Assembly: GCA_976551045.1 (NCBI GenBank)
Contig: CDPCPM010000164.1
Span: 3,286,001 to 3,350,000, forward strand
DNA: 64,000 nt
Direction: 5' to 3'
From: Glaucostegus cemiculus
Lineage: Eukaryota
Numbering within the stretch: the stretch's first letter is position 1; each line of letters begins with the position of its first letter. Below, one piece after another: positions 6,216-60,151 of this stretch. The position numbers were made by a program, and so were the translations under genes. The notes beneath the pieces are model-generated. The model was not told where the DNA came from. It saw nothing but the letters and a program-made list of their open reading frames with translations, and searched no databases.

Positions 6216-7519
6216 TTTTGGGCTTTTGAATTTGATAATATTATGGGAGTTCGTTGGTATATAGGGGTGTCCATAAGTCAGGCTGTATCTTGTTTTTATT
6301 ACACCAGTGGGAGGGTACTATGTGTAAATTGGCTGCCATACTTCCTACAGCGTTGCATCAGCTGTGAAGCACCCTGGAATAGATCTGTGAAAGCTGCTTT
6401 GTAAATGCAAATCTTTCTTCTTTAGAAGGTTGGACTTTCAATTTTGGAAGTGACATAAAGGTGGTGATGACAGACCAGGTGCCCTTTGTAGCCCAACCAA
6501 TTTTTCTTTGCGCATTGCAATATCTGCCTCATAATGGGAATTGCTGATGCAAAATTGTCTTGTAATTACATCTTCTTGCCTGAGAAGGCACAGAGGCCCC
6601 TCCAGAATGGTGCATCTTGTGCAGAATTTTCCTAAGTTGTATGTGGAGATAAACATTGGAATAAAATGCACAGATGGTTGTTTTCTAATGTGTATCACGG
6701 ATGAGCAGATTATTGTTATTAGGGCACCCTATCTTTCACAGCCCTTCCACGTTCTGCTTACTTGATCAGATGATGTTGCACTGGGAGTGCACATTCCAAA
6801 GTTTGCACAGATGGTGAGGTGCTTCAGATTTTAAACGCGTAACAGAAAATGGGAGTCAGACTAAATAAATTAGAGGTAGATTGCGGGTAGGGAGAGCATT
6901 CAAAGCACACACCTAGCTTGCAAACGCTTTCCTAAAGTTTGAAAAGTTTAAATGGTAAACATTTTAAAGCGCAAAATGTCACACTGTTCATTTTCATTCT
7001 GGTGATGGCAATTTATGGTTCTTTATGCAGACCCAGTGGTATCTGGATTGCATCCTACTGGCTTGGCCAGTTTACACAGAGTGAACGGAGACATCTGCTA
7101 TTTATAATCAAAGTGGTCAGTCTCTGCAGCATCTAAGTCTTCACCTTTATCTTTGCCAGTGGATTATTTGAGCCAACTTTTACTCATATGCAAGCAAGTT
7201 GACCTTTCCCTGTGTCAGAAGGAGATAGACACACGCAAATGCACTTGGTAATGGAGTGGGCTCTCGGAAGCATTCCTGCCTCTGAGTCTGACTGTTGTGG
7301 GTTCAAATCTCTTTCAGATGCCACCAAACTACTTTGAAGACAGAAAGGAGATTTATCCCTGCCAGTATCCTGACCAACCTTTATCTCCTAAAGCAGATTA
7401 TTCAGTCCTACATCAGCAGCTCCTACATCACATAAAGCAGATTATTCAGTCATTATAATACTGCTGTTTGTGGGTGCTTGCTATGCACAATTAGTGACTA
7501 TGGTTCAAAGTATTTCAAA

Positions 7520-7790
7520 CACTAGAAGACAGGCGTTTAAGGTGCGAGGGGGAAAGTTTAAGGACAATGTTTGGGGCAAGTGTTATTTTTACACAGAGAG
7601 TGGTGGGTGCCTGGGACAGGCTGCTGGGGAGAGTGGTGGAAGCAGGTACGTTTAAGAGGCTTTTAGATAGACACATGAATCTGCAGGTAATGAAGGGATA
7701 TGGATCACTTGCAGGTAGAAAAGATTTTGGGCGCAGATGTGGTGGGCCAAAGGGCCTGTTTCTGTGTTGTAGTGTTTTGTGTTCTATTTC
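7520..7790 (+). mobile_element. CR1 3' fragment inserted in a DeuSINE
   Basis: FTQRVVGAWDRL and CR1 tail; DeuSINE halves at about 7245-7520 and 7790-7850. Confidence 0.8.
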
Positions 7791-9099
7791 ATGGCTGTGC
7801 AGTGCTTTGGGATGTCAGATAAGGTGTTACATGAATGCAAGGCTGCTCTTACCTTCTCAGTGGGAGAGCTGCCATTATGTGAGGGAGCTGCCTGTGATGG
7901 GCAGTACACCTTCCAGTCTTCTGTGGACCTTCTCCAGTCACCAGCCTAGGGGCCAGAACTGGAGCCCCAATGAGAGAGACCAGGTATGCTCCTTTATTCT
8001 TTAATTGGTGGCTTAAGCTGGAGGGTTCACCTCCCTTGCAAATATAGAAAGTAAGAATAACTCCAAAAAAAAAAACCCCATCAGTTAAAAGAAATGGAGC
8101 AAAAAGCTTCCAACATATCACTTCAAACTAAGTTGTAACACCTGGCAGGGGTGGGCTGATAGGACGGGGCAACCCTGTTCTGAAGAAAGGTCTTCAATGT
8201 GAAGCATCAACGGCTTCTGTTTCACAGATGCTGCCTGACCTGATGAGTGTTTCCAGTATTTCCTGTTTTGTTATTTGAGATTTCCAACATCTGCATTTTT
8301 TTTTCCATTTATAACGCAGGGTCCCACCTAGCAAAAAGTTAATTCAGCATCAGTGCGAGAAAATGTGTCATCACGTTGTGATCAATGGACAAAATAAACA
8401 TTGGTGGTCTCTGAGCCTTCTCTCGCACTCTCTCTCTTGCTCTCTCTCACTCCACTGCTGTATTTCCTGTTCCTCTCTCCTCCCCCCCACCCCCGTATTT
8501 TATAAATGAGCAGTCAAAACGTCCACCATTTGGGTTGGCATGCAGTGTCTCGTCTTGCATCACCCACCAGTGAGCAGGGTGCATTTATTGAGCCTGCTGA
8601 AGTTCTCATGTAGTTGATGCCACTCTCTGTCTTCGGGGAACACCAGAGCAGTGTTCGGCTCTTGACACGGGGGCTGAGATGCCTGAAGGGTCTAATTCTG
8701 TCTGTTCTCTGGAGGAGATGGCAGAGATGCATCTCTCGTAGCTCACTCCTAGAATGTGTATGTGCTGAAGTGCAAATTAATACCTTTTATTTAGCTAAAA
8801 TTGAGTCCTACAGCATGGAAACATGCCCTTTGGTCCACCAAGCTCCTGCTGACTGTCAACCATCCATTTCCACCCAATTACATTAATTCCATTTTTTTAA
8901 TGCTCCCTGCATACTCATCAACTCCTCCAGATTCTGTCACTACCTACACTCTGGGAATAACTTGCAGTGGCCAATTAACTACCAACCTATACGTCTTTGG
9001 AATGTTGTAGGAAACCAAAACTTCGGGGGGGGGGGGTGAGAAACCCATGCAGTTACAGGGAGAACATGCACATTCCACACAGAGTGCCTGATGTCAGGA

Positions 9100-9779
9100 T
9101 TACATAGAACATAGATACCTGCAGCACAATTCAGGCCCTTCGGCCCACAAAGCTGAGTCGAACATGTCCCCACACTATTAGGCTTACCCTTAACCTTCTA
9201 TCTTATTTACCTCCATGTACCTACCCAAAAGTCTCTTGAAAGACCCTAACGTATCCACCTCCACCACCATCTCTGGCAGCCCATTCCACGCACTCACCAC
9301 TCCCTGGGTAAAAAACTTACCCTTAACATCTCCCCTATATCTTCCCCCCAGCACCTTAAACCTATGTCCTCTTGTGGCCACCATTTCAGCCCTGGGGAAA
9401 AGCCTCCGACTATCTACCCTATCCATACCCCTCATCATCTTGTACACCTCAATCAGGTCCCCCCTCATCCTCCGTCTCTCCGAGGAGAAAAGGCCGAGTT
9501 CCCGTAACCTGCTCTCATAAGGCATGCTCCTCATCCCAGGCAGCATCCTCGTAAACCTCCCCTGCACCCTCTCTATAGCTTCCACATCTTTCCTGTAGTG
9601 AGGCGACCAGAACTGAACACAATACTCCAGGTGGGGTCTGACCAGGGACCTATACAACTGAAGCATTACCTCCCTACTCCTAAATTCAATCCCTCGACCG
9701 ATGAAGGACAACACACCATACGCCTTCCTAACCACAGAGTCAACCTGCGCAGCCGCCTTGAGCGTCCTATGGACTATGG
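9100..9779 (-). mobile_element. Young CR1/HER1-type LINE 3' fragment (C-terminal ORF2 still open) inserted into an HE1 SINE
   Basis: Uninterrupted ORF with LYRSLVRPHLEYCVQFWSPHYRKD...RRRMRGDLIEVYKMM...TRGHRFK...FFTQGVVSAWNGLP; ctatgt tail. HE1 halves at about 8800-9100 and 9780-9830. Confidence 0.92.
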
Positions 9780-9874
9780 ATTGAACCTGGGTCTCTGGCA
9801 CTGTGAGGCAGCAGCTCTACAAGCTGTGCCAATCTGTGTGAGTGGATATCACTAACAGAAATCATCACTAGGGG

Positions 9875-29694: not shown

Positions 29695-31050
29695 GTAAGG
29701 TCGAGTTTATTGCCAAATGTACGTACGTGTTTGCACAGGTGCAATGAAAATCTTGCTTGCAGCAGCAGAACAGGCACGTAGCATTAGAGACACAACATTC
29801 AAAAGAAAAACATAAATTAAGCATTAAGTTATACAGTATTATCCAAGAAAGAACTCAATTAGAACAAAAAACCAGAGTCCATTATCGTGCATAAGTGGTC
29901 ATTATGTTGTAATACTGAGGTCGTGATTGGGGTTGTGCCGGTTGGTTCAAGAAGATAAGATATTTTTATTAGTCACATGTACATCAAAACACATAGTGAA
30001 ATGCATCTCTTGCGTAGAGTGTTCTGGGGGCAGCCCACAAGTGTCACCACGCTTCCGGTGCCAACATAGCATACCCATAGCTCCTAACCCATACATCTTT
30101 GGAATGTGGGAGGAAACCAGAGCACCCGGAGGAAACCCATGCAGTCACAGGGAGAATGTACAAACTCCTTACAGTCAGCGGCCGGAATTGAACCCGGGTC
30201 GCCAGCACTGTAATAGCGTTACACTAACCGCTGCACTATCGTGCCTGCCCACTCACAATTTTATCAAATTGGTTGAAGGGAAGTAGCTGTTCCTGAACCT
30301 GATGATATGGGACGTCAGGCTTCTGTACCGCCTGCCCAATAGTATCTGCGAGAAGATGGCATGGCTTGAAAGGTGAATGAAATGTAATCTAATTGTTTGC
30401 AAGGTAGTTGACACTGAAGAATCAGAGTCAGGTTTATTGTCACTGACATACATCGCGAAATTTGTTTTGCAGCAGCAGTATAGTGCAAGACATAAGTTAC
30501 AAAAATAAATAAATAGTGCAAAGATAGTGTTCATGGACCATACAGAAATCTGATGGTGGAGGGGAAGAAGCTGTTTCTGAAACATTGAGTGTGGGTCTTC
30601 AGGCTCCTGTACCTCCTCCCTTATGGTAGTAACAAGAGGGCATGTCCCGGATGGTGAGGGTCCTTAATGATGGATGGTGCCTTCTTGAGGCACAGGCTCT
30701 TGAAGTTGTCCTTGCTGGCAGGGAGGGTTGTGCCTGTGATGGAGCTGGCTGAGTCTACAACGCTGTGCAGCCCTTTTCGTTCCTGTGCATTGGAGCCTCC
30801 ATACCAGGCAGTGATGCAACTAGTCAGAATGCTCTCCACCGTACATCTGTAGAAATTTGCCAGAGTCTTAGGTGACATACCAAATCTCCTCAACCTCCCG
30901 ATGAAGTAGAGCCACTGGCATGCCGCCTTTGTGATTGCATCAATGTGTTGGGCCTGAGATGGATCCTCTGAGATGTTGATGCCTAGGAACTTGAAGCTGC
31001 TCACCTTTTCCACAGCTGATCCCTCAGTGAAGACTTGTGTATGTTCTCCC
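29695..31050 (-). mobile_element. Cluster of Rex1/Babar-type 3' fragments (two subfamilies) with an inserted V-SINE
   Basis: FKFLGINISED...LRRFGMSPKTLANFYRCTVESILTSCITAWYG; GRRYRSLTSHIIRFRNSYFP. Confidence 0.85.
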
Positions 31051-31747
31051 GACCTGGTGCTGGCAAATTCTATTCAAGCTCATTCACGGGCAGCAGGTCG
31101 AAAAGTGATTACCTTTTTGCTTGTGGGCCCATTATCAGAGCAGTCACAATCTCAGTGGCCTCCAGAGTGTGCATGACTGTGGCAAAGGCTCTGTTTAGCT
31201 CCATAGCAGAGTGACAAGGCTAGGAAAGGGACCATAACAACAAGACCCCTGTCCATGCCCCACTGTATATTTAATGTGGGCTTCACAGTGGTGAATTATC
31301 TGTTAAATTCTGATCACAGACTGCTGAATGTGACAGGATATTGATTGGAACCACTAGCTAGCCAGGCCGGATAACAAGTGGATGTGCTGAACTCGTCCCG
31401 AGGTTCTCCAGTGAATTCAGAAAATGAAAGGAAGATGTAAAGTTAAGGAGATTCAGCAGGGTAGCTGGAGAGAAACCTTACCTTGAAAAGGTCAGGGAAT
31501 AGAGAGCATGGATAAGAATCTTAAAATTTGAGCCAACGTAGAGTCACGGAATCAAGCAGCAGGGAAACAGGCCCTTTGGCCCACTGAGTCCATGCTGACC
31601 ATGAACCAGCTATTTACACTAATGCTGCTTTAATTCAATTTTTTTTATTATCTCTACATTCTCATCAACTCCCTCCAGATTCTACCATTCACCTGCCCAC
31701 TAGAAGCAATTTACAGTGGCTGAGTAACCTACCAACCCTCGCATGAG

Positions 31748-48428: not shown

Positions 48429-48467
48429 GGACCCCAGATACAGTGGACATTGTGACAGTTCATCACC
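48429..48467 (+). other. LZTS2: 5' UTR portion of LZTS2 coding exon 1
   Basis: Long (CT)n/T polypyrimidine tract at 48385-48420, followed by AG at 48427-48428 and a second AG at 48436-48437. Confidence 0.7.
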
Positions 48468-48926
48468 ATGGCAATGGTTCAGGCGATGCCCATAGCTTCT
48501 GAGCATCAGAGTCCGGAGAGTGGGGCGAGTCTGCAAACTTCTGCACCGTCGCCAGTCTTGCCGAGCACCATGGGTAGTGTTGGCAGCCTTGTCTCAGGAC
48601 GTAACTACCATGACAAGCACTGCAAAGCCACAGAGTACGGCAGCAAGTGTCGCAAAACCAGCCAGATACAGAACATTTTCAGGCAACAGGATGGGCACCT
48701 AAAAAATGGCTACTCTCAGGACTGCATTGGTGGAATGGCGACCAAGAAGCAGAATGGGAACTATGCACACCTAAAAGACGACCGGCGCAATGGAGGCTGG
48801 AATATGATAGAGTCGCCTGCCAGTCCTTGCAGTGATCCCGAGGACGTGCGGGAGGGAAAGTCGGTCAATGGAAACATCCGGGGTCCTCCTCCAAAGATAA
48901 TTCCGGTGTCGGGCAAGCTTGAGAAG
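48468..48926 (+). CDS. LZTS2: LZTS2 (leucine zipper tumor suppressor 2) coding exon 1, aa 1-153
   Basis: Kozak caccATGG at 48468. The peptide MAMVQAMP...MGSVGSLVSGR...FRQQDG...SPCSDPED...RGPPPKIIPVSGKLEK matches the LZTS2 N-terminus. Pyrimidine tract and acceptor ttgccAG at 48427-48428; donor AAG|gtaaga at 48927; 459 nt, phase 0. Confidence 0.93.
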
Positions 48927-49714
48927 GTAAGATCACACTGAGGACTTTCCCTGGGGATGTGGCAGTGAGCTGTGTTACATATTCAAAGCTACGGGCCTTC
49001 ACACATGCTTTTGGTTTATTATTGTCACATGTACCAAGATACAGTGTAAATCTTTGTTTTGCATGTCATCCAGACAGATCACTCCAAACATAGAACATAC
49101 AACAGCACAGCACAGGAAAAGGCTCTTCAACCAACGATCTTGTGCCGGACTAATTAAACTAATGACATCTTTTGTCTGCATGTGATTCATGTCCCTCCAT
49201 TCTTTGCATAGGATGGCTAGGATGTTGTGCCCAGCTGTTGAAGGTGGGGTTAGGAGTCTGTTCGGAGGGGACGGATGAAATCGGAGACCCACAGAGGAAC
49301 TGCAGCAAAACTTAACTCAGCATCGGCCAGGTTCCACATGCCCAGCTCTGTGGACTGGATACCCCCTTTAAGTATCAGCAAAGTGAACCCTTGCATTTGT
49401 AGCATGGGTGGGCCACACACGCTGCAGATGAAACGTTGTCCAGGTGTTGGATGTCTGCTTACCTCCTTGTCTTCCCAAGTCATGCACTTGCAAAGCCCAG
49501 AAGCAATGTCACGGATATTGCAATTGATGCAATAAGAACCCGGCTGTGCTCAGGTCTATGCCAGCTCACAGGGCAATCCCATCAATCCCATTCTCCTACA
49601 TATTTCCTAGTAACCTATTCTCTCACATATGCTCATTAACTGATTTTCCCATCCACCTGGTATAGGTGTGATTTATAGTTAAGAATTAATCTTACAACCA
49701 ACATGCGGTTATAA

Positions 49715-51189: not shown

Positions 51190-51860
51190 ATGAAGCCAAG
51201 AAAGGTAGGTAGGGTTGCTAAGAAGGCAAATGCACGCTTGCCTTCAAAGATTAAGGAATAGGATATAAAAGCTGGGATGTTGCCTTCATAGATTAAGGAA
51301 TAGGATATAAAAGTTGGGATGTTACCTTGCACTTGGAGTGTTGTGTGCAATTCCAGTCGCCACGCTATCGGAAGGGTATGGTTGAACTGGAGAGAATGCA
51401 GTGGAGATTCACCAGGATATTGCCTGGATTGGAAGACTTTGGTTATGAGGAGTGATTAGATAGGCTTGGTTTGTTTTCCCTGTAGCAAAGGACTCTGGAG
51501 GGTGACCTGATAAAGTATATAAAATATTAAGCAACGTAGATAGGACACATAGTCAGAATCTTTTTCCTGTAATAGGGGTATCGAAAGCAAGAGGGCATAG
51601 GTTTAAGGTGAGAGGAGGAGCCTTACAAGGGATTTGAGGGGATAGTATTTTTACATAGAGAGTGGTTGACATTCGGAACTCACTGCCAGAGGAAGTGGTG
51701 GAGTCAGGTACAATCACTAGTTTTAAGAGACATTCAGACAGGCACCTAAGGAGGATATGGACCTAATGTGGGCAAGTGAGATTAGTGCGAATGGGCAAAA
51801 AGGTTGTCATGGATGTGGTTGGCTGGAGGGCCCATTTGTGTACTGTACAACTCTATATGG
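51190..51860 (+). mobile_element. Degenerate CR1 LINE 3' fragment with internal 42-bp tandem duplication (about 51249-51330)
   Basis: cacttggagtgttgtgtgcaattc...gattcaccaggatattgcctgga...gagggcataggtttaaggtgagagg. Confidence 0.8.
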
Positions 51861-53023: not shown

Positions 53024-53151
53024 NNNNNNNNNNNNNNNNNNNNNNNNNNNNNNNNNNNNNNNNNNNNNNNNNNNNNNNNNNNNNNNNNNNNNNNNNNNNN
53101 NNNNNNNNNNNNNNNNNNNNNNNNNNNNNNNNNNNNNNNNNNNNNNNNNNN
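53024..53151. other. Assembly gap (128 N), next to a (CT)n microsatellite at about 53213-53266
   Basis: Run of n in the sequence. Confidence 0.99.
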
Positions 53152-53412
53152 TCTTTTTCCTTCACACTCTCATTTCTCATTCCTTCACTTGTTCTCCTTC
53201 CCTCACACACGCTCTCCCTCTCTCTCTCTCCCTCTCTCTCTCTCTCTCTCCCTCTCCCTCTCTCTCATGTTCCTTTGCCCTCTCATTCATATGATTTTTC
53301 TAATAAATACTGAGGCACAATGCTATTGCATAACTCATGGAATAGATTAATAAGAGGGTTTGCATTTCAAAGAATAATTGTAGCTGTATAAAGAAATTAC
53401 TGAAATAAAACC

Positions 53413-56135: not shown

Positions 56136-56157
56136 TCACTTTTGAAATGAAGGAATC

Positions 56158-56830
56158 TCCTCCCTGAAAGTGGCCACGCAAATAGATAGGGTGGTAAAGA
56201 AAGTGTATAGTATACTTGCCTTCATTGGTTGGGGCATTGAGTATATGAGTCAGGAAATCATGTTGCAGCTGTATAAACCTTTGGCTAGGCCACACTTAGA
56301 GTATTGTGTGCAATGCTGGTCTCCCCATTACAGGAAGGATGTGGAGGCTGTGGAAAGGTTGCAGAAGAAGTTCACCAGGATGCTGCCTGGATTAGAGAGT
56401 ATGAGCTATAAGGAGAGGTTGAACAAACTTGGGTTGTTTTCTCTGGAGAGTTGGAGGCTGAGGGGAGACCTGATAGAAGTTTATTAAATTATGAGAGTCA
56501 TAGATATGTAGACAGAATCTTCTTCCCAGGGAAGCAGTGTTCAGTACTAGAGGACATGGTTGTAAGGTGAGAGAGGGAATATTTAAAAGAGATGTGCGGG
56601 ACCAGTTTTTTTTCACACAGAGAGTAGTGGGTGCCTAGGACAGGCTGCTAGGGGGAGTAGTGGAAGCAGATATGCTAACGGCGTTTCTGAGGCTTTAGAA
56701 TATGCAGGGAATGGAGGGATATGGATCGTGTGTAGGCAGAAGGGATTAACTCAATTTGGCATTGCGTTTGGCACAGATATTGTGGGCTGAAGGGCTTGTT
56801 GCTGTACCATACTGTACTGTTCTATGTTCA
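56158..56830 (+). mobile_element. CR1/HER1 LINE 3' fragment ending about 60 nt before LZTS2 exon 2
   Basis: QLYKPLARPHLEYCVQCWSPHYRKD...LRGDLIEVY; CR1 3' tail. Confidence 0.9.
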
Positions 56831-56890: not shown

Positions 56891-57760
56891 AACATTGAGA
56901 AAAACCTAATCAGGCCAACAGCGTTCAAGCCCGTTATGCCCAAGAACAGGAACTCTGTCCAGTACCTCGTTCCCCGTCCCACCAATGGATTGTCGGACAG
57001 TCAAGGGAGCCTAAATATCGTCTTCAATGGGAATTCACTGGGGTCTGTCAGCTGCGCCGAGAAACGGAACTCACTCCAGAGCTATGGTTGTCCCCGGAGC
57101 AGCGCGCAGTCGGGAAACCTCTCGGACTCTGGGAGGAACTCTTTGTCCAGCCTGCCCACCTACAGCACGGGCTGCAGCCAGCAGCTGGAGGCGGTCAGCT
57201 CCTCCACAGGGCACATCAACCTGGAGGGAGGCGGAGGGCAGCAGGGCTTCCACGAGAGAGGCGCAGCCTCGCTGAATGGCCTGTCCAACTCAGACAGCGG
57301 CCGCTCTTCCTCCAGCAAGAGCACGGCCTCGCTGAGCGGCCGCGCCCCGCCGCTGTCGGACGGTGAGCGCTCGCCCGGCGCCAGCCACGACCTGGTGGTG
57401 CGGGAGCTGGAGGAGAGGCTGCGGGAGCGTGAGGCCGAGCTGCGGCAGCTGAGGGAGAGCCTGGAGGAGAATGAGGCGGCCCTGTGCCAGATCTACGAGG
57501 AGAAGCAGCGGCGCTGCGAGCAGGAGATGGAGGAGCTGCGGCAGAGCTGCGCCGGCAAGCTGCGGCAGAGCTCGCAGAAGGCGCAACGGGTGCAGCAGGT
57601 GCTGCAGCTGCAGGTCTACCAGCTGCAGCAGGAGAAGAAGAAGCTGCAGGAGGACTTCACTCAGCTGCTGCAGGAGCGCGAGCTCCTCGAGAAGAAGTGC
57701 GCCTCCATCGAGAAGGAGCAGACAGAGCTGGGGCCGCGGCTGGAGGAAACCAAGTGGGAG
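56891..57760 (+). CDS. LZTS2: LZTS2 coding exon 2, aa 154-443 (Ser-rich region and start of the coiled coil / Fez1 domain)
   Basis: Acceptor tgtttcAG|AAC at 56889-56890. Peptide NIEKNLIRPTAFKPV...LSDSGRNSLSSLPTYSTG...SDSGRSSSSKS...LQLQVYQLQQEKKKLQEDF...LEETKWE. Donor GAG|gtaggc at 57761; 870 nt, phase 0. Confidence 0.95.
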
Positions 57761-58385
57761 GTAGGCAGATGTCCATGGTCACCATGGTGACAGGGACCCA
57801 ATGGGAGATAGGCAGGTGCCCGCAGTCACCACGTGACAGGGACCCAATGGGAGATAGGCAGGTTCCCATGGTCACCACGGTGACAGGGACCCAATGGGGG
57901 ATAGGCAGTCGTCCACAGTCACCATGGTGACAAGGACCCAGTGGGGGATAGACAGGCACCCACGGTCACCACGGTGACAGTCACCCAATGGGGGATAGGC
58001 AGGCACCCACAGTCACCATGGTGGGGACACAATAGGGGATAGGCAGGCACCCACGGTCACCAAGGTGACAGTGACCCAATGGGGGATAGGCAGGTCACCA
58101 CGGTCATGGACCCAATGAGAGATAGGCAGGAGACCATGGTCACAATGCAACGGGAACCCAGTGGGGGTAAGCAGGCATCCAAGGTAATTGTGTCGATGGA
58201 GACCCAAGTGGGAGTTAGGCAAGTACCCACGGTCACCATGGCAACAAAGACCCAAGTGGGTGGTAAGCAGACATCCATGGTCACCACGGCGACAGGGACC
58301 CAATGGGAGGTAGGCAGGCGTCTAAGCTCACCGTGGTGATGGGGACCAGTGTGAGGTAGGCAGGCACCCATGGTCACCATGGCAA
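57748..58385 (+). repeat. ~47-bp minisatellite, about 13-14 diverged copies, first unit overlapping the LZTS2 exon 2 donor
   Basis: Unit gacccaatgggagataggcaggttcccatggtcaccacggtgacagg (57841-57887). Units start at 57748, 57795, 57841, 57888 and onward. Confidence 0.92.
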
Positions 58386-58458
58386 TGGCTCTGCAGGTAT
58401 TGGCCTGTCCCAGGAGGTTTGGAGTTCAAGTGTCACCCCCGAGAAGATGGGCATGAAG

Positions 58459-58575
58459 CTGGGGGGGGGGGGGTGGGGGGGAGGGTGGTGGGAGGGACAA
58501 GGGATGTGGGCTGTGGGGTTGGGGGCTGTGTAATGTGAGGGGTAGTGGCTGGGGCGGTGGGGAAATGGAGGGGCT
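58459..58575 (+). repeat. G-rich tract with G-quadruplex potential in the LZTS2 intron after coding exon 2
   Basis: Many G3+ runs (g13-t-g7-agggtggtgggagggacaaggg...). Confidence 0.6.
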
Positions 58576-59449
58576 GTGAGACAGGAGCATAGTAGGGCTA
58601 TGAGAAGGGCTTGTGGAAAGAGTGATGAGAGAGGGGAATACAATTCCAGGCCCTTCCCTGGTTACGGGCGCCACCTACATATGACACTCCTACACATGAA
58701 CGAGCCCCCATAATATTATTAAATTGCAACGTAAGTACATCATTCCCCTCTCTCTCCTCTTTTAGTGATTGTTCTTTCTTATCAGTCTTGTGTACTTTTG
58801 ATGCCATTCACTACAACACTATGGAAGTGTGGTTACTATGTCAAGTGATTTTTGTGCATCTTCCAAACAAAATCGACTTCTGAACATCTGTAAGAATGGA
58901 ACCTGTTCATTATCCAGGGATGGCCTGTAACAATGTAAATTCCTAAAATTAAAAGAAATACATTTAATTGTCACTGATCGTACAACCGCTTCTATAATTC
59001 TGCCACTGCATCTCAGACCCTGCTAGGAAGCACTGTTAAGAAAGTTCTGGTGTCCTGGAGAATCAGCAAGGCACCATTCTCTCTCTCTTTCTTTGTAAGT
59101 CATCCTTTTTTCTTTCCTGTCATTCTCTCTTGCTGACACTCTTCAATTCTCCAGTTCTCATTACAGTGTGTTCTCCTTTTAGATCCTGCACTACCTTTAC
59201 CCTACTTTAGTCTTTTCCCCAAGCTCTTGGCCTTTCTTTTTGTCTGCAAGCTATATATTACATTAGTGCTGCTTCATCCTCCTCTTTCCCACTCTCATCC
59301 ATCACTGCCCCATGGGCTTCAGTCTTCACCTAGTTTTCCAAATGGAAGTGAAATGCAGACATAGTGGGCAATCATAACTCTGTTGGAAGTGCAGAAGGAA
59401 TAGCTACCACTGATCTATCTCTTCTCTTGTTGTTGCACCCGACCTCTAG

Positions 59450-60151
59450 GTTTGTCAGAAGTCTGGAGAGATTTCGCTCCTGAAGCAACAGCTAAAAGAC
59501 TCCCAGGCTGATCTGGCCATGAAGAGCAACGAAATAGTCTCCTTGAAAGCACAGCTCCGTGATATACGAGCCGAGTTACAGGACCACGAGGATGAGATTC
59601 ACGAGTTCCGAGATTCGGTCCACACCAAGACCTTGGAGCTGGAGGTGTGCGAGAACGAACTTCAGCGCAAGAAGAATGAGGCTGAACTTTTGAGGGAGAA
59701 GGTGGGCAAGCTGGAGCAGGAGACCACTGGCCTGAGGGAAGCCCTGGGCAACACGAGACATGCAATTGGTCCCTACCCTGAGCGGGAGGACACTTTCCTG
59801 ATGTACGAGAGCGACGAAGCCAAGGTCCAGCGGCAAAACGCAGACAACCAACAGAGCCTTAGACAGCAAATGGAAAAGCTGAGGGCTGAGCTCATGTATG
59901 AAAGGAGGAGGAGCGAGACTCAGTTGCAGAACTTTGAGGTGGAGCGGCGCACGTGGCAAGGAGAGAAGGAGAAGGTAATTAGGTACCAAAAACAGCTCCA
60001 GCACAACTACATCCAGATGTACAGGAGGAACCGCGAGCTGGAGAGAGAAATGAGGCAACTCAGTCTGGAACTGGAAGCCAGGGAATTAGATGACCTTGAA
60101 GTGCGAAATGAAGACATTCGATTTGATGAGATCACTGCAACAGAAATCTAA
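59450..60151 (+). CDS. LZTS2: LZTS2 last coding exon, aa 444-676 (Fez1 coiled coil, C-terminal PDZ-binding motif TEI)
   Basis: Acceptor cctctAG|GTT at 59448-59449. Peptide VCQKSGEISLLKQQLK...ESDEAKVQR...EKEKVIRYQKQLQHNYIQMYRRNR...FDEITATEI-stop, in frame with exon 2 (ETKWE|VCQKSGEI is the LZTS family junction). Confidence 0.95.
   Translation, partial: VCQKSGEISLLKQQLKDSQADLAMKSNEIVSLKAQLRDIRAELQDHEDEIHEFRDSVHTKTLELEVCENELQRKKNEAELLREKVGKLEQETTGLREALGNTRHAIGPYPEREDTFLMYESDEAKVQRQNADNQQSLRQQMEKLRAELMYERRRSETQLQNFEVERRTWQGEKEKVIRYQKQLQHNYIQMYRRNRELEREMRQLSLELEARELDDLEVRNEDIRFDEITATEI

What the first reader, a model, noticed from the sequence alone, without database searches (positions are those of the whole stretch)
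57748..58385. Minisatellite born from the LZTS2 exon-intron junction multiplies the 5' splice site
Seen in sequence: the first 47-bp unit starts 13 nt inside exon 2 (aaccaagtgggag|GTaggcag). The proximal copies have the donor GT changed to AT (gggagATaggcag), but distal copies keep donors: GGG|gtaagc (58167), GTG|gtaagc (58263), GAG|gtaggc (58310, identical to the real donor) and GAG|gtaggc (58356). Read-through hits an in-frame TGA at 57788-57790. Inference: using a distal donor would give a premature-stop, NMD-type isoform lacking the Fez1 C-terminus and PDZ ligand, so repeat copy number or variant order could tune LZTS2 dosage. The GT-less proximal copies may reflect selection against competing donors.
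Basis: partly seen in the sequence, partly recalled or inferred. Interest (0 to 1): 0.7.

Follow-up and report, generated by a model that had tools for sequence, protein, structure and literature searches.

The report
Splice-donor minisatellite in ray LZTS2 intron
An old 47-base repeat has copied the end of one exon and its splice signal 13 more times into the last intron of a sawfish-like ray's LZTS2 gene; the same oddity is known from several human genes, and the spare signals here look silent.

Summary
A 14-unit, 47-bp array (57746-58391) starts 15 nt inside the second coding exon of LZTS2a of a ray close to Pristis pectinata (11 differences in 676 aa). Eight adjacent copies carry AT at the donor position, one TT, four distal ones keep GT; a TGA follows nine codons after the real donor. 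This is a known kind (human F7, CBS, 6-16, LMNB2, PDGFA, ABCA7; amphioxus 'mirages'), where the first donor is normally used and leak goes to the nearest copies, which here are dead. The AT copies look like one mutation spread by local duplication, with co-inherited changes elsewhere; a founder hits the GT by chance about one time in three. Units are 58-91% alike and at least part of the array lies in two relatives, so it is old. In two RNA runs of a relative, exons had depth 4-18 and six bins inside the array had none; junction reads were not visible and NMD was not blocked. Dosage tuning is unsupported, not excluded. This scan noted the same kind in other genomes (10 findings).

The parts
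48468..48926 (+). First coding exon of LZTS2a (153 aa), followed by a GT donor at 48927
   Evidence: Matches residues 1-153 of Pristis pectinata LZTS2a (P0001) with 6 differences
56891..57760 (+). Second coding exon (290 aa), ending ...EETKWE; its last 15 nt belong to the first repeat unit
   Evidence: 99% identical to P0001; 3 differences; AG before it and GT after it
57746..58391 (+). Minisatellite, 14 units of 36-50 bp (mode 47), pairwise identity 58-91%
57746..57792 (+). Unit 1: 15 exonic nt, the real donor (GT at 57761-57762) and 32 intronic nt
57778..57791 (.). 14-bp perfect palindrome inside unit 1, repeated with 0-1 changes in several other units
57788..57790 (+). First in-frame stop (TGA) on read-through, nine codons after the real donor; six more in-frame stops follow in the array
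57793..58152 (+). Units 2-9: block with AT in place of the donor GT, more alike to each other than to the rest
   Evidence: mean identity 0.81 within, 0.72 to the others, donor column left out
58153..58391 (+). Units 10-14: older, more diverged copies; pseudo-donors at 58167, 58263, 58310, 58356, a lost one in unit 11, and an out-of-register candidate at 58184
59450..60151 (+). Last coding exon (233 aa, VCQK... to ...EITATEI, stop); acceptor AG at 59448-59449; holds the Fez1 domain
   Evidence: Pfam PF06818 E 2.3e-74, profile positions 5-199 of 199; 2 differences from P0001

Best explanation
An old, decaying minisatellite that arose by tandem duplication of a 47-bp piece across the last exon-intron junction of LZTS2a. 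The first round left copies with an intact donor (now units 10-14). One copy then took a G-to-A change at donor position +1, together with other changes, and was amplified to eight units next to the exon, pushing the intact copies 406-595 nt into the intron. The spliceosome uses the first donor (57761) and removes the whole array with the intron; the four distal GT sites behave as ordinary latent donors behind an in-frame stop, and any rare leak is degraded. Shown: anatomy, origin from the junction, block structure, stop position. Inferred: order of events, silence in this species, neutrality of the AT block.
For: Junction older than the repeat: EETKWEVCQK in 116 of 120 long homologues; among 120 shorter hits, 49 run on differently after the motif and 43 of those begin with Val, as a phase-0 GT read-through gives. 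No dispersed source: the best matches of units outside the array are 15-17 nt. One founding event: the 8 AT units are contiguous (chance 7 of 3003), only 4 of 3003 groups of eight are as alike, column -7 follows the same pattern (A in 7 of 8 AT units, 1 of 6 others), and a single AT clade is not rejected (AU p 0.48). The AT consensus differs from the GT consensus at 9 of 47 places, so it hits the GT by chance with p 0.35; distal units lost 1 GT of 5 against 1.7 expected. Decoys are commonplace in this gene: 13 of 492 GT sites of intron 1 pair with U1 as well as the real donor, against 2 of 46 in the array. RNA of a relative: depth 0 in all 6 bins from 57837 to 58382 in both runs, with mean exon depths of 7.2 and 3.8 upstream and 12.7 and 17.8 downstream. 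Precedent: in F7 only the first of identical donors is used, even against stronger pseudo-sites (PMC1557585).
Against: The RNA is from a relative, two samples of one study, shallow, without NMD block; the canonical 57760-59450 joint was not among the 15 joints shown (74 hidden), so no donor was seen in use. The upper bound on extended transcripts is loose, about 4-45% depending on assumptions. The best tree does not itself group unit 9 with the other AT units. The dead copies sit exactly where leak occurs in 6-16, CBS and ABCA7, as selection would predict. The array has about twice the density of strong decoys of intron 1 (3.2 against 1.6 per kb), and a G-rich run follows the distal donors.
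Confidence: 0.72

Rival explanations
1. Same origin and same silence today, but the AT block is the product of purifying selection: only a donor-dead unit could expand next to the exon, because GT copies there would have leaked into stop-containing transcripts. The block now acts as a spacer between the real donor and its intact copies.
For: All 8 nearest copies are dead and intact ones start 406 nt away. Known leak goes to the nearest one or two pseudo-sites (6-16, CBS; PMC1557585 introduction; ABCA7 one-unit retention). A CBS paper is titled for a substitution in the second repeat that prevents alternate splicing (reference title only). The junction peptide is conserved in 116 of 120 homologues.
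Against: One event only; chance of hitting the GT 0.35-0.45. A column outside the U1 site shows the same block. Units with intact GT must once have stood next to the exon and were tolerated. F7, LMNB2 and PDGFA keep identical neighbours without leak.
Confidence: 0.2
2. One reading: distal donors are used at a measurable rate, perhaps under stress, producing a stop-containing, NMD-sensitive transcript, and array length or unit order tunes LZTS2 dosage.
For: Two distal donors equal the real one over -3..+8 and one is nearly as strong. The stop lies 376-565 nt before the last junction. Latent donors are activated by heat shock and hypoxia (PMC3510495 abstract). ABCA7 shows a VNTR donor giving an NMD-sensitive isoform.
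Against: No RNA depth inside the array in two runs of a relative. No read-through protein of this kind among the 240 listed homologues. No two units are identical (best 91%), unlike a fast-changing VNTR. In ABCA7 the one-unit retention was a minor isoform and did not change with VNTR size. The exon would grow from 870 to 1276-1465 nt. Every downstream donor gives the same stop, so unit order cannot change the product.
Confidence: 0.06
3. The array is an assembly artefact, or a dispersed repeat that landed at the junction and resembles the exon end by chance.
For: None direct; whole-genome copy number could not be checked because no genome is held.
Against: Units differ by 9-42%, which a collapse or stutter of the assembly would not give. 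Contigs of two other organisms lie on parts of the array, and one 492-nt contig runs from 58279 in the array into the unique flank. Units match the 15 exonic nt at 7-12 positions.
Confidence: 0.02

Closest known systems
Human F7 intron 7 37-bp VNTR (Borensztajn et al. 2006, PMC1557585; abstract, outline and passages of introduction, results, discussion and references read)
   Same: Minisatellite whose first unit spans an exon-intron boundary, so the donor is reiterated in the intron; downstream copies are pseudo-sites.
   Different: F7 has 5-9 units with identical donors and is length-polymorphic; here 14 diverged units, 9 of 13 copies have lost the GT, polymorphism is unknown, 15 exonic nt are copied rather than 4.
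Human CBS intron 13, 6-16 intron 2, LMNB2 and PDGFA minisatellites (known here only from the introduction and reference titles of PMC1557585; PMC306954 not held)
   Same: Reiterated donors; CBS has a substitution in the second repeat that, by the paper's title, prevents alternate splicing, the nearest parallel to the AT block.
   Different: In CBS and 6-16 two pseudo-sites are used (in 6-16 the two nearest); here the eight nearest are dead and no use is seen.
Human ABCA7 intron 18 25-bp VNTR (De Roeck et al. 2018, PMC5954066; passages and section 21 read)
   Same: Repeat beginning at a donor; a repeat-borne donor gives a stop-containing, NMD-sensitive isoform.
   Different: ABCA7 alleles range from hundreds to thousands of bases, the donor used is one unit away, and the length effect is on skipping of the next exon, not on the repeat donor. 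None of this is shown for LZTS2a.
Amphioxus 'mirages' in Adh3 and globin genes (PMC3087553; passages read)
   Same: Tandem copies of an exon-intron boundary in a chordate; many but not all units keep the splice signal; local homogenisation that spares the ends; regular splicing not disturbed.
   Different: Units of 10-72 or about 155 bp, 81-100% alike in BflGb6 and length-unstable; this array is more diverged.
Latent 5' splice sites behind in-frame stops (Nevo et al. 2012, PMC3510495; abstract and outline seen)
   Same: Consensus-like intronic donors preceded by a stop, normally unused.
   Different: Here they come from tandem duplication of the real donor rather than from chance sequence.

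Membership tests
Boundary-spanning donor minisatellites (F7 IVS7, CBS, 6-16, LMNB2, PDGFA; amphioxus mirages) | Head-to-tail array with a minisatellite-size unit | tested here: met
   Period 47, 13.8 copies, score 491; 14 units
Boundary-spanning donor minisatellites (F7 IVS7, CBS, 6-16, LMNB2, PDGFA; amphioxus mirages) | First unit spans a real exon-intron boundary | tested here: met
   Exon ends at 57760, GT at 57761; three exons sum to the 676 aa of P0001; later units match the exonic 15 nt at 7-12 positions
Boundary-spanning donor minisatellites (F7 IVS7, CBS, 6-16, LMNB2, PDGFA; amphioxus mirages) | Donor sequence reiterated in the following intron | tested here: met
   4 of 13 copies keep GT; 2 equal the real donor over -3..+8
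Boundary-spanning donor minisatellites (F7 IVS7, CBS, 6-16, LMNB2, PDGFA; amphioxus mirages) | Only the first donor, or the first and the nearest pseudo-sites, are used | tested here: inconclusive
   No depth in six array bins in two RNA runs of a relative, but shallow, junction rows not shown, no NMD block
Boundary-spanning donor minisatellites (F7 IVS7, CBS, 6-16, LMNB2, PDGFA; amphioxus mirages) | Copy number varies among individuals (needed for the name VNTR) | not testable with these tools
   No run holds more than 0.18 of the sampled words, so no individual of this species was at hand; unit divergence speaks against fast turnover
Splicing-active VNTRs (ABCA7 type) | Isoform ratio or transcript level changes with allele length | not testable with these tools
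   Needs genotypes and RNA from the same animals
Latent 5' splice sites behind in-frame stops | Consensus-like intronic donor with an in-frame stop between it and the real donor | tested here: met
   Stops at 57788, 57809, 57881, 57902, 58040 precede 58167 and all later sites
LZTS2 (Fez1 family) | Best hits named LZTS2; Fez1 domain; C-terminal EITATEI-type end | tested here: met
   The ten best hits that bear a name are LZTS2/LZTS2a; PF06818; EITATEI ends 103 of 120 homologues and the window's protein

The most novel reading that the evidence does not exclude
The array records a splice-site repair in progress: donor duplication once caused leak into NMD, selection let only a donor-dead unit expand beside the exon, and that block now works as a spacer whose length sets a residual, stress-inducible use of the four intact distal donors, giving sawfishes and their kin a heritable dial on LZTS2 level.
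Probability: 0.07. Interest if true: 0.55.

Novelty: new member of a known kind. Interest (0 to 1): 0.17.

Why it matters
As it stands, little: one more example of a known arrangement, in a cartilaginous fish. Its modest value is as a natural test piece. Two distal donors equal the real one over eleven letters but lie behind eight dead copies, so a minigene would show whether the first-donor rule found for F7 holds outside mammals and over 550 nt. Pooled with other such arrays, it is one data point for asking whether copies next to the exon lose GT more often than chance. If allele-dependent leak were shown, it would be a rare case of a repeat tuning a developmental gene through NMD.

Tried and rejected
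Own-genome search: no genome held, so copies elsewhere in the genome were not counted. Run search: no listed holder on record as RNA, and no run of this species (best share 0.18); this blank says nothing on expression. Junction reads: with likeness 80 and share 1 the joint table was filled by a G-run and a high-copy repeat in the intron; 74 joints, 349 letter rows and 11,891 pieces were hidden, so neither the canonical joint nor the donor letters of the relatives' units could be read. RNA structure as a mask or switch: the array folds only slightly better than shuffles (z -1.8, 1 of 20 shuffles as good), and predicted accessibility is low for all donors, with no clear advantage for the real one; rejected as an explanation. 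Annotated truncated isoform: none of the 240 listed homologues (120 of 1078 long hits, 120 of 180 short hits) holds the read-through peptide, and no named short hit is from a shark or ray; weak, because NMD targets are seldom annotated as proteins (recalled). MaxEntScan was not available; a U1 pairing energy stood in for it and under-rates AU-rich sites such as 58184. Literature on this locus: of 2,824 papers holding three of LZTS2, intron, minisatellite, VNTR, tandem repeat, sawfish, the 15 listed do not mention LZTS2; a five-term search on VNTR, donor and NMD gave 0 papers; a search on LZTS2 dosage listed nothing of use in 10 rows. These are thin searches. PMC2812944 (passages) adds only that repeats at exon-intron boundaries can change splicing. 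No look-alike stretch among earlier findings. No supplements were opened.

Full report
What is there. The window holds LZTS2a of a cartilaginous fish. The 290-aa second coding exon is 99% identical to Pristis pectinata LZTS2a (P0001), and the next hits are other rays and sharks at 70-88%. Three exons, 48468-48926, 56891-57760 and 59450-60148, give 153 + 290 + 233 = 676 aa, the length of P0001, with 11 differences in all and GT-AG ends on both introns. The animal is thus a sawfish or a close relative (inference). The last exon carries the Fez1 domain, profile positions 5-199, and ends in EITATEI; that this end is a PDZ ligand is recalled, not tested.

The array. TRF finds period 47, 13.8 copies, 73% matches at 57750-58382. 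I cut it into 14 units from 57746 to 58391, 36-50 bp long and 58-91% alike, no two identical. Unit 1 holds the last 15 exonic letters and the real donor at 57761. The 23-letter junction word has 9 matches at 17 or more letters in the array and none in the rest of the window. Each unit also holds a near-palindrome, perfect at 57778-57791, which may have helped slippage (inference).

Direction of origin. The exon end is older than the repeat. EETKWEVCQK stands in 116 of 120 long homologues. Among 120 shorter hits, 26 continue as VCQK, 45 lack the motif and 49 continue otherwise; 43 of these 49 begin with Val, which is what read-through of a phase-0 GT gives, so the intron sits at this place across the family. 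Matches of units elsewhere in the window are at most 15-17 letters.

Strength of the spare donors. With a U1 pairing energy (U1 end recalled; a stand-in for MaxEntScan), the real donor scores -9.3 kcal/mol; 58310 and 58356 are the same eleven letters, 58167 scores -9.2 and 58263 -8.0. The proximal units are not free of GT: weaker sites lie at 57816, 57862, 58021, 58065, 58094, and 58184 matches the consensus at 8 of 11 letters. Decoys this strong are not special: 13 of 492 GT sites of intron 1 reach the real donor's score (1.6 per kb), 2 of 46 in the array (3.2 per kb), 0 of 63 in the rest of intron 2. Read-through meets TGA at 57788 after nine codons, then six more stops; every downstream donor gives the same 452-aa frame, with the stop 376-565 nt before the last junction, beyond the 50-55-nt rule for NMD (recalled). 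Copy number could change only the rate of leak, not the product.

Is the AT block selected? It looks like one event. The eight AT units are adjacent (chance 7 of 3003); with the donor column left out they are 0.81 alike against 0.71 among the other six and 0.72 between groups, and only 4 of 3003 groups of eight are as alike; column -7 shows the same block (7 of 8 against 1 of 6); a tree forced to hold one AT clade is not rejected (AU p 0.48), though the free tree places unit 9 apart with weak support. The AT consensus differs from the GT consensus at 9 of 47 places, which would hit the GT by chance with p 0.35 (0.45 against unit 1), and the distal units lost 1 GT of 5 against 1.7 expected from their divergence. 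Neutral turnover suffices. One event cannot exclude selection, and the dead copies do sit where leak is known to happen.

Relatives and RNA. No public run of this species turned up; the best hold 0.18 of the words. I laid four of 22 runs on 57200-59900. Organism A's contig covers 58812-59898 with 45 other letters, and organism B's covers 58900-59898 with 35, so both are about 4% away. A's contigs lie on 57746-58018 at summed depth 18-40 against 10.6 for single copy; B's lie on 57746-57836 at 53 against 12.4, and one 492-nt contig runs from 58279 in unit 12 to 58780 in the flank. At least part of the array is thus shared and older than these splits; the holes prove nothing. The two RNA runs carry A's exon letters. 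Their mean depth is 7.2 and 3.8 on the second coding exon, 12.7 and 17.8 on the last, and 0 in all six bins from 57837 to 58382 and in the four bins 59020-59383. Any transcript spliced at a distal donor must run through 57837-58018, where A's DNA does map; 13-37 read-equivalents would be expected there if all transcripts were extended, so the bound is about 8-23% by reads or 16-45% by fragments, and 4-25% if the stretch up to 58166 is counted. This rules out a dominant isoform in two samples of one study, no more. The canonical joint was not among the 15 shown, and NMD was not blocked.

What is known. Borensztajn et al. (PMC1557585; abstract and passages) describe minisatellites whose first unit spans an exon-intron boundary in F7, 6-16, CBS, LMNB2 and PDGFA: only the real donor is used in F7, LMNB2 and PDGFA, and two pseudo-sites besides it in 6-16 (the two nearest) and CBS; in F7 stronger pseudo-sites still did not compete. 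A CBS paper is titled for a substitution in the second repeat that prevents alternate splicing (title only). In ABCA7 (PMC5954066; passages and section 21) a donor one unit into the VNTR gives an NMD-sensitive isoform that did not vary with VNTR size. Amphioxus 'mirages' (PMC3087553; passages) keep splice signals in many but not all units, homogenise locally and do not disturb splicing. Latent donors behind stops are abundant and normally unused (PMC3510495; abstract). Earlier notes of this scan report the same kind in 10 findings from at least 5 genomes, two of them in sharks (unchecked), and none resembles this sequence. I found no paper on this locus in thin searches.

Verdict. A real and tidy new member of a known kind. 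It most likely works like the F7 array: the first donor wins and the array leaves with the intron (silence about 0.9; neutral history 0.72, selected spacer 0.2). Dosage tuning has no support here and keeps about 0.06. Interest 0.17.

Noticed in passing
window 58683-58930: A very high-copy repeat in the same intron: contigs of both relatives pile up to summed depth 58,000-70,000 against 10-12 for single copy. Its left end recalls a Tigger/pogo-type DNA transposon remnant (recalled, not tested).
   Followed up: no
window 58460-58497: A G-rich run about 100 nt after the last pseudo-donor (TRF period 15); G-run density 68 per kb at 58392-58640 against 14 in intron 1. G runs can aid an upstream donor (recalled).
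   Followed up: partly
window 56150-56700, 9190-9816 (-), 7498-8004 (+), 30621-31073 (-): Stretches whose translations recall the C-terminal part of LINE reverse-transcriptase proteins (recalled). Pfam found nothing in 6 of 7 long ORFs tested and ALKBH8_N (E 3.1e-05) in 30624-31073; 56150-56700 was not tested.
   Followed up: partly
   Followed up: no
window 53024-53151: A 128-base assembly gap inside intron 1, next to a CT microsatellite at 53212-53266.
   Followed up: no
window 48463-48477: The 15 letters around the LZTS2a start codon equal the tail of unit 14 (E 0.002); probably chance.
   Followed up: no
window 51238-51328: A 42-bp unit in 2.2 copies, 93% matches, in intron 1.
   Followed up: no
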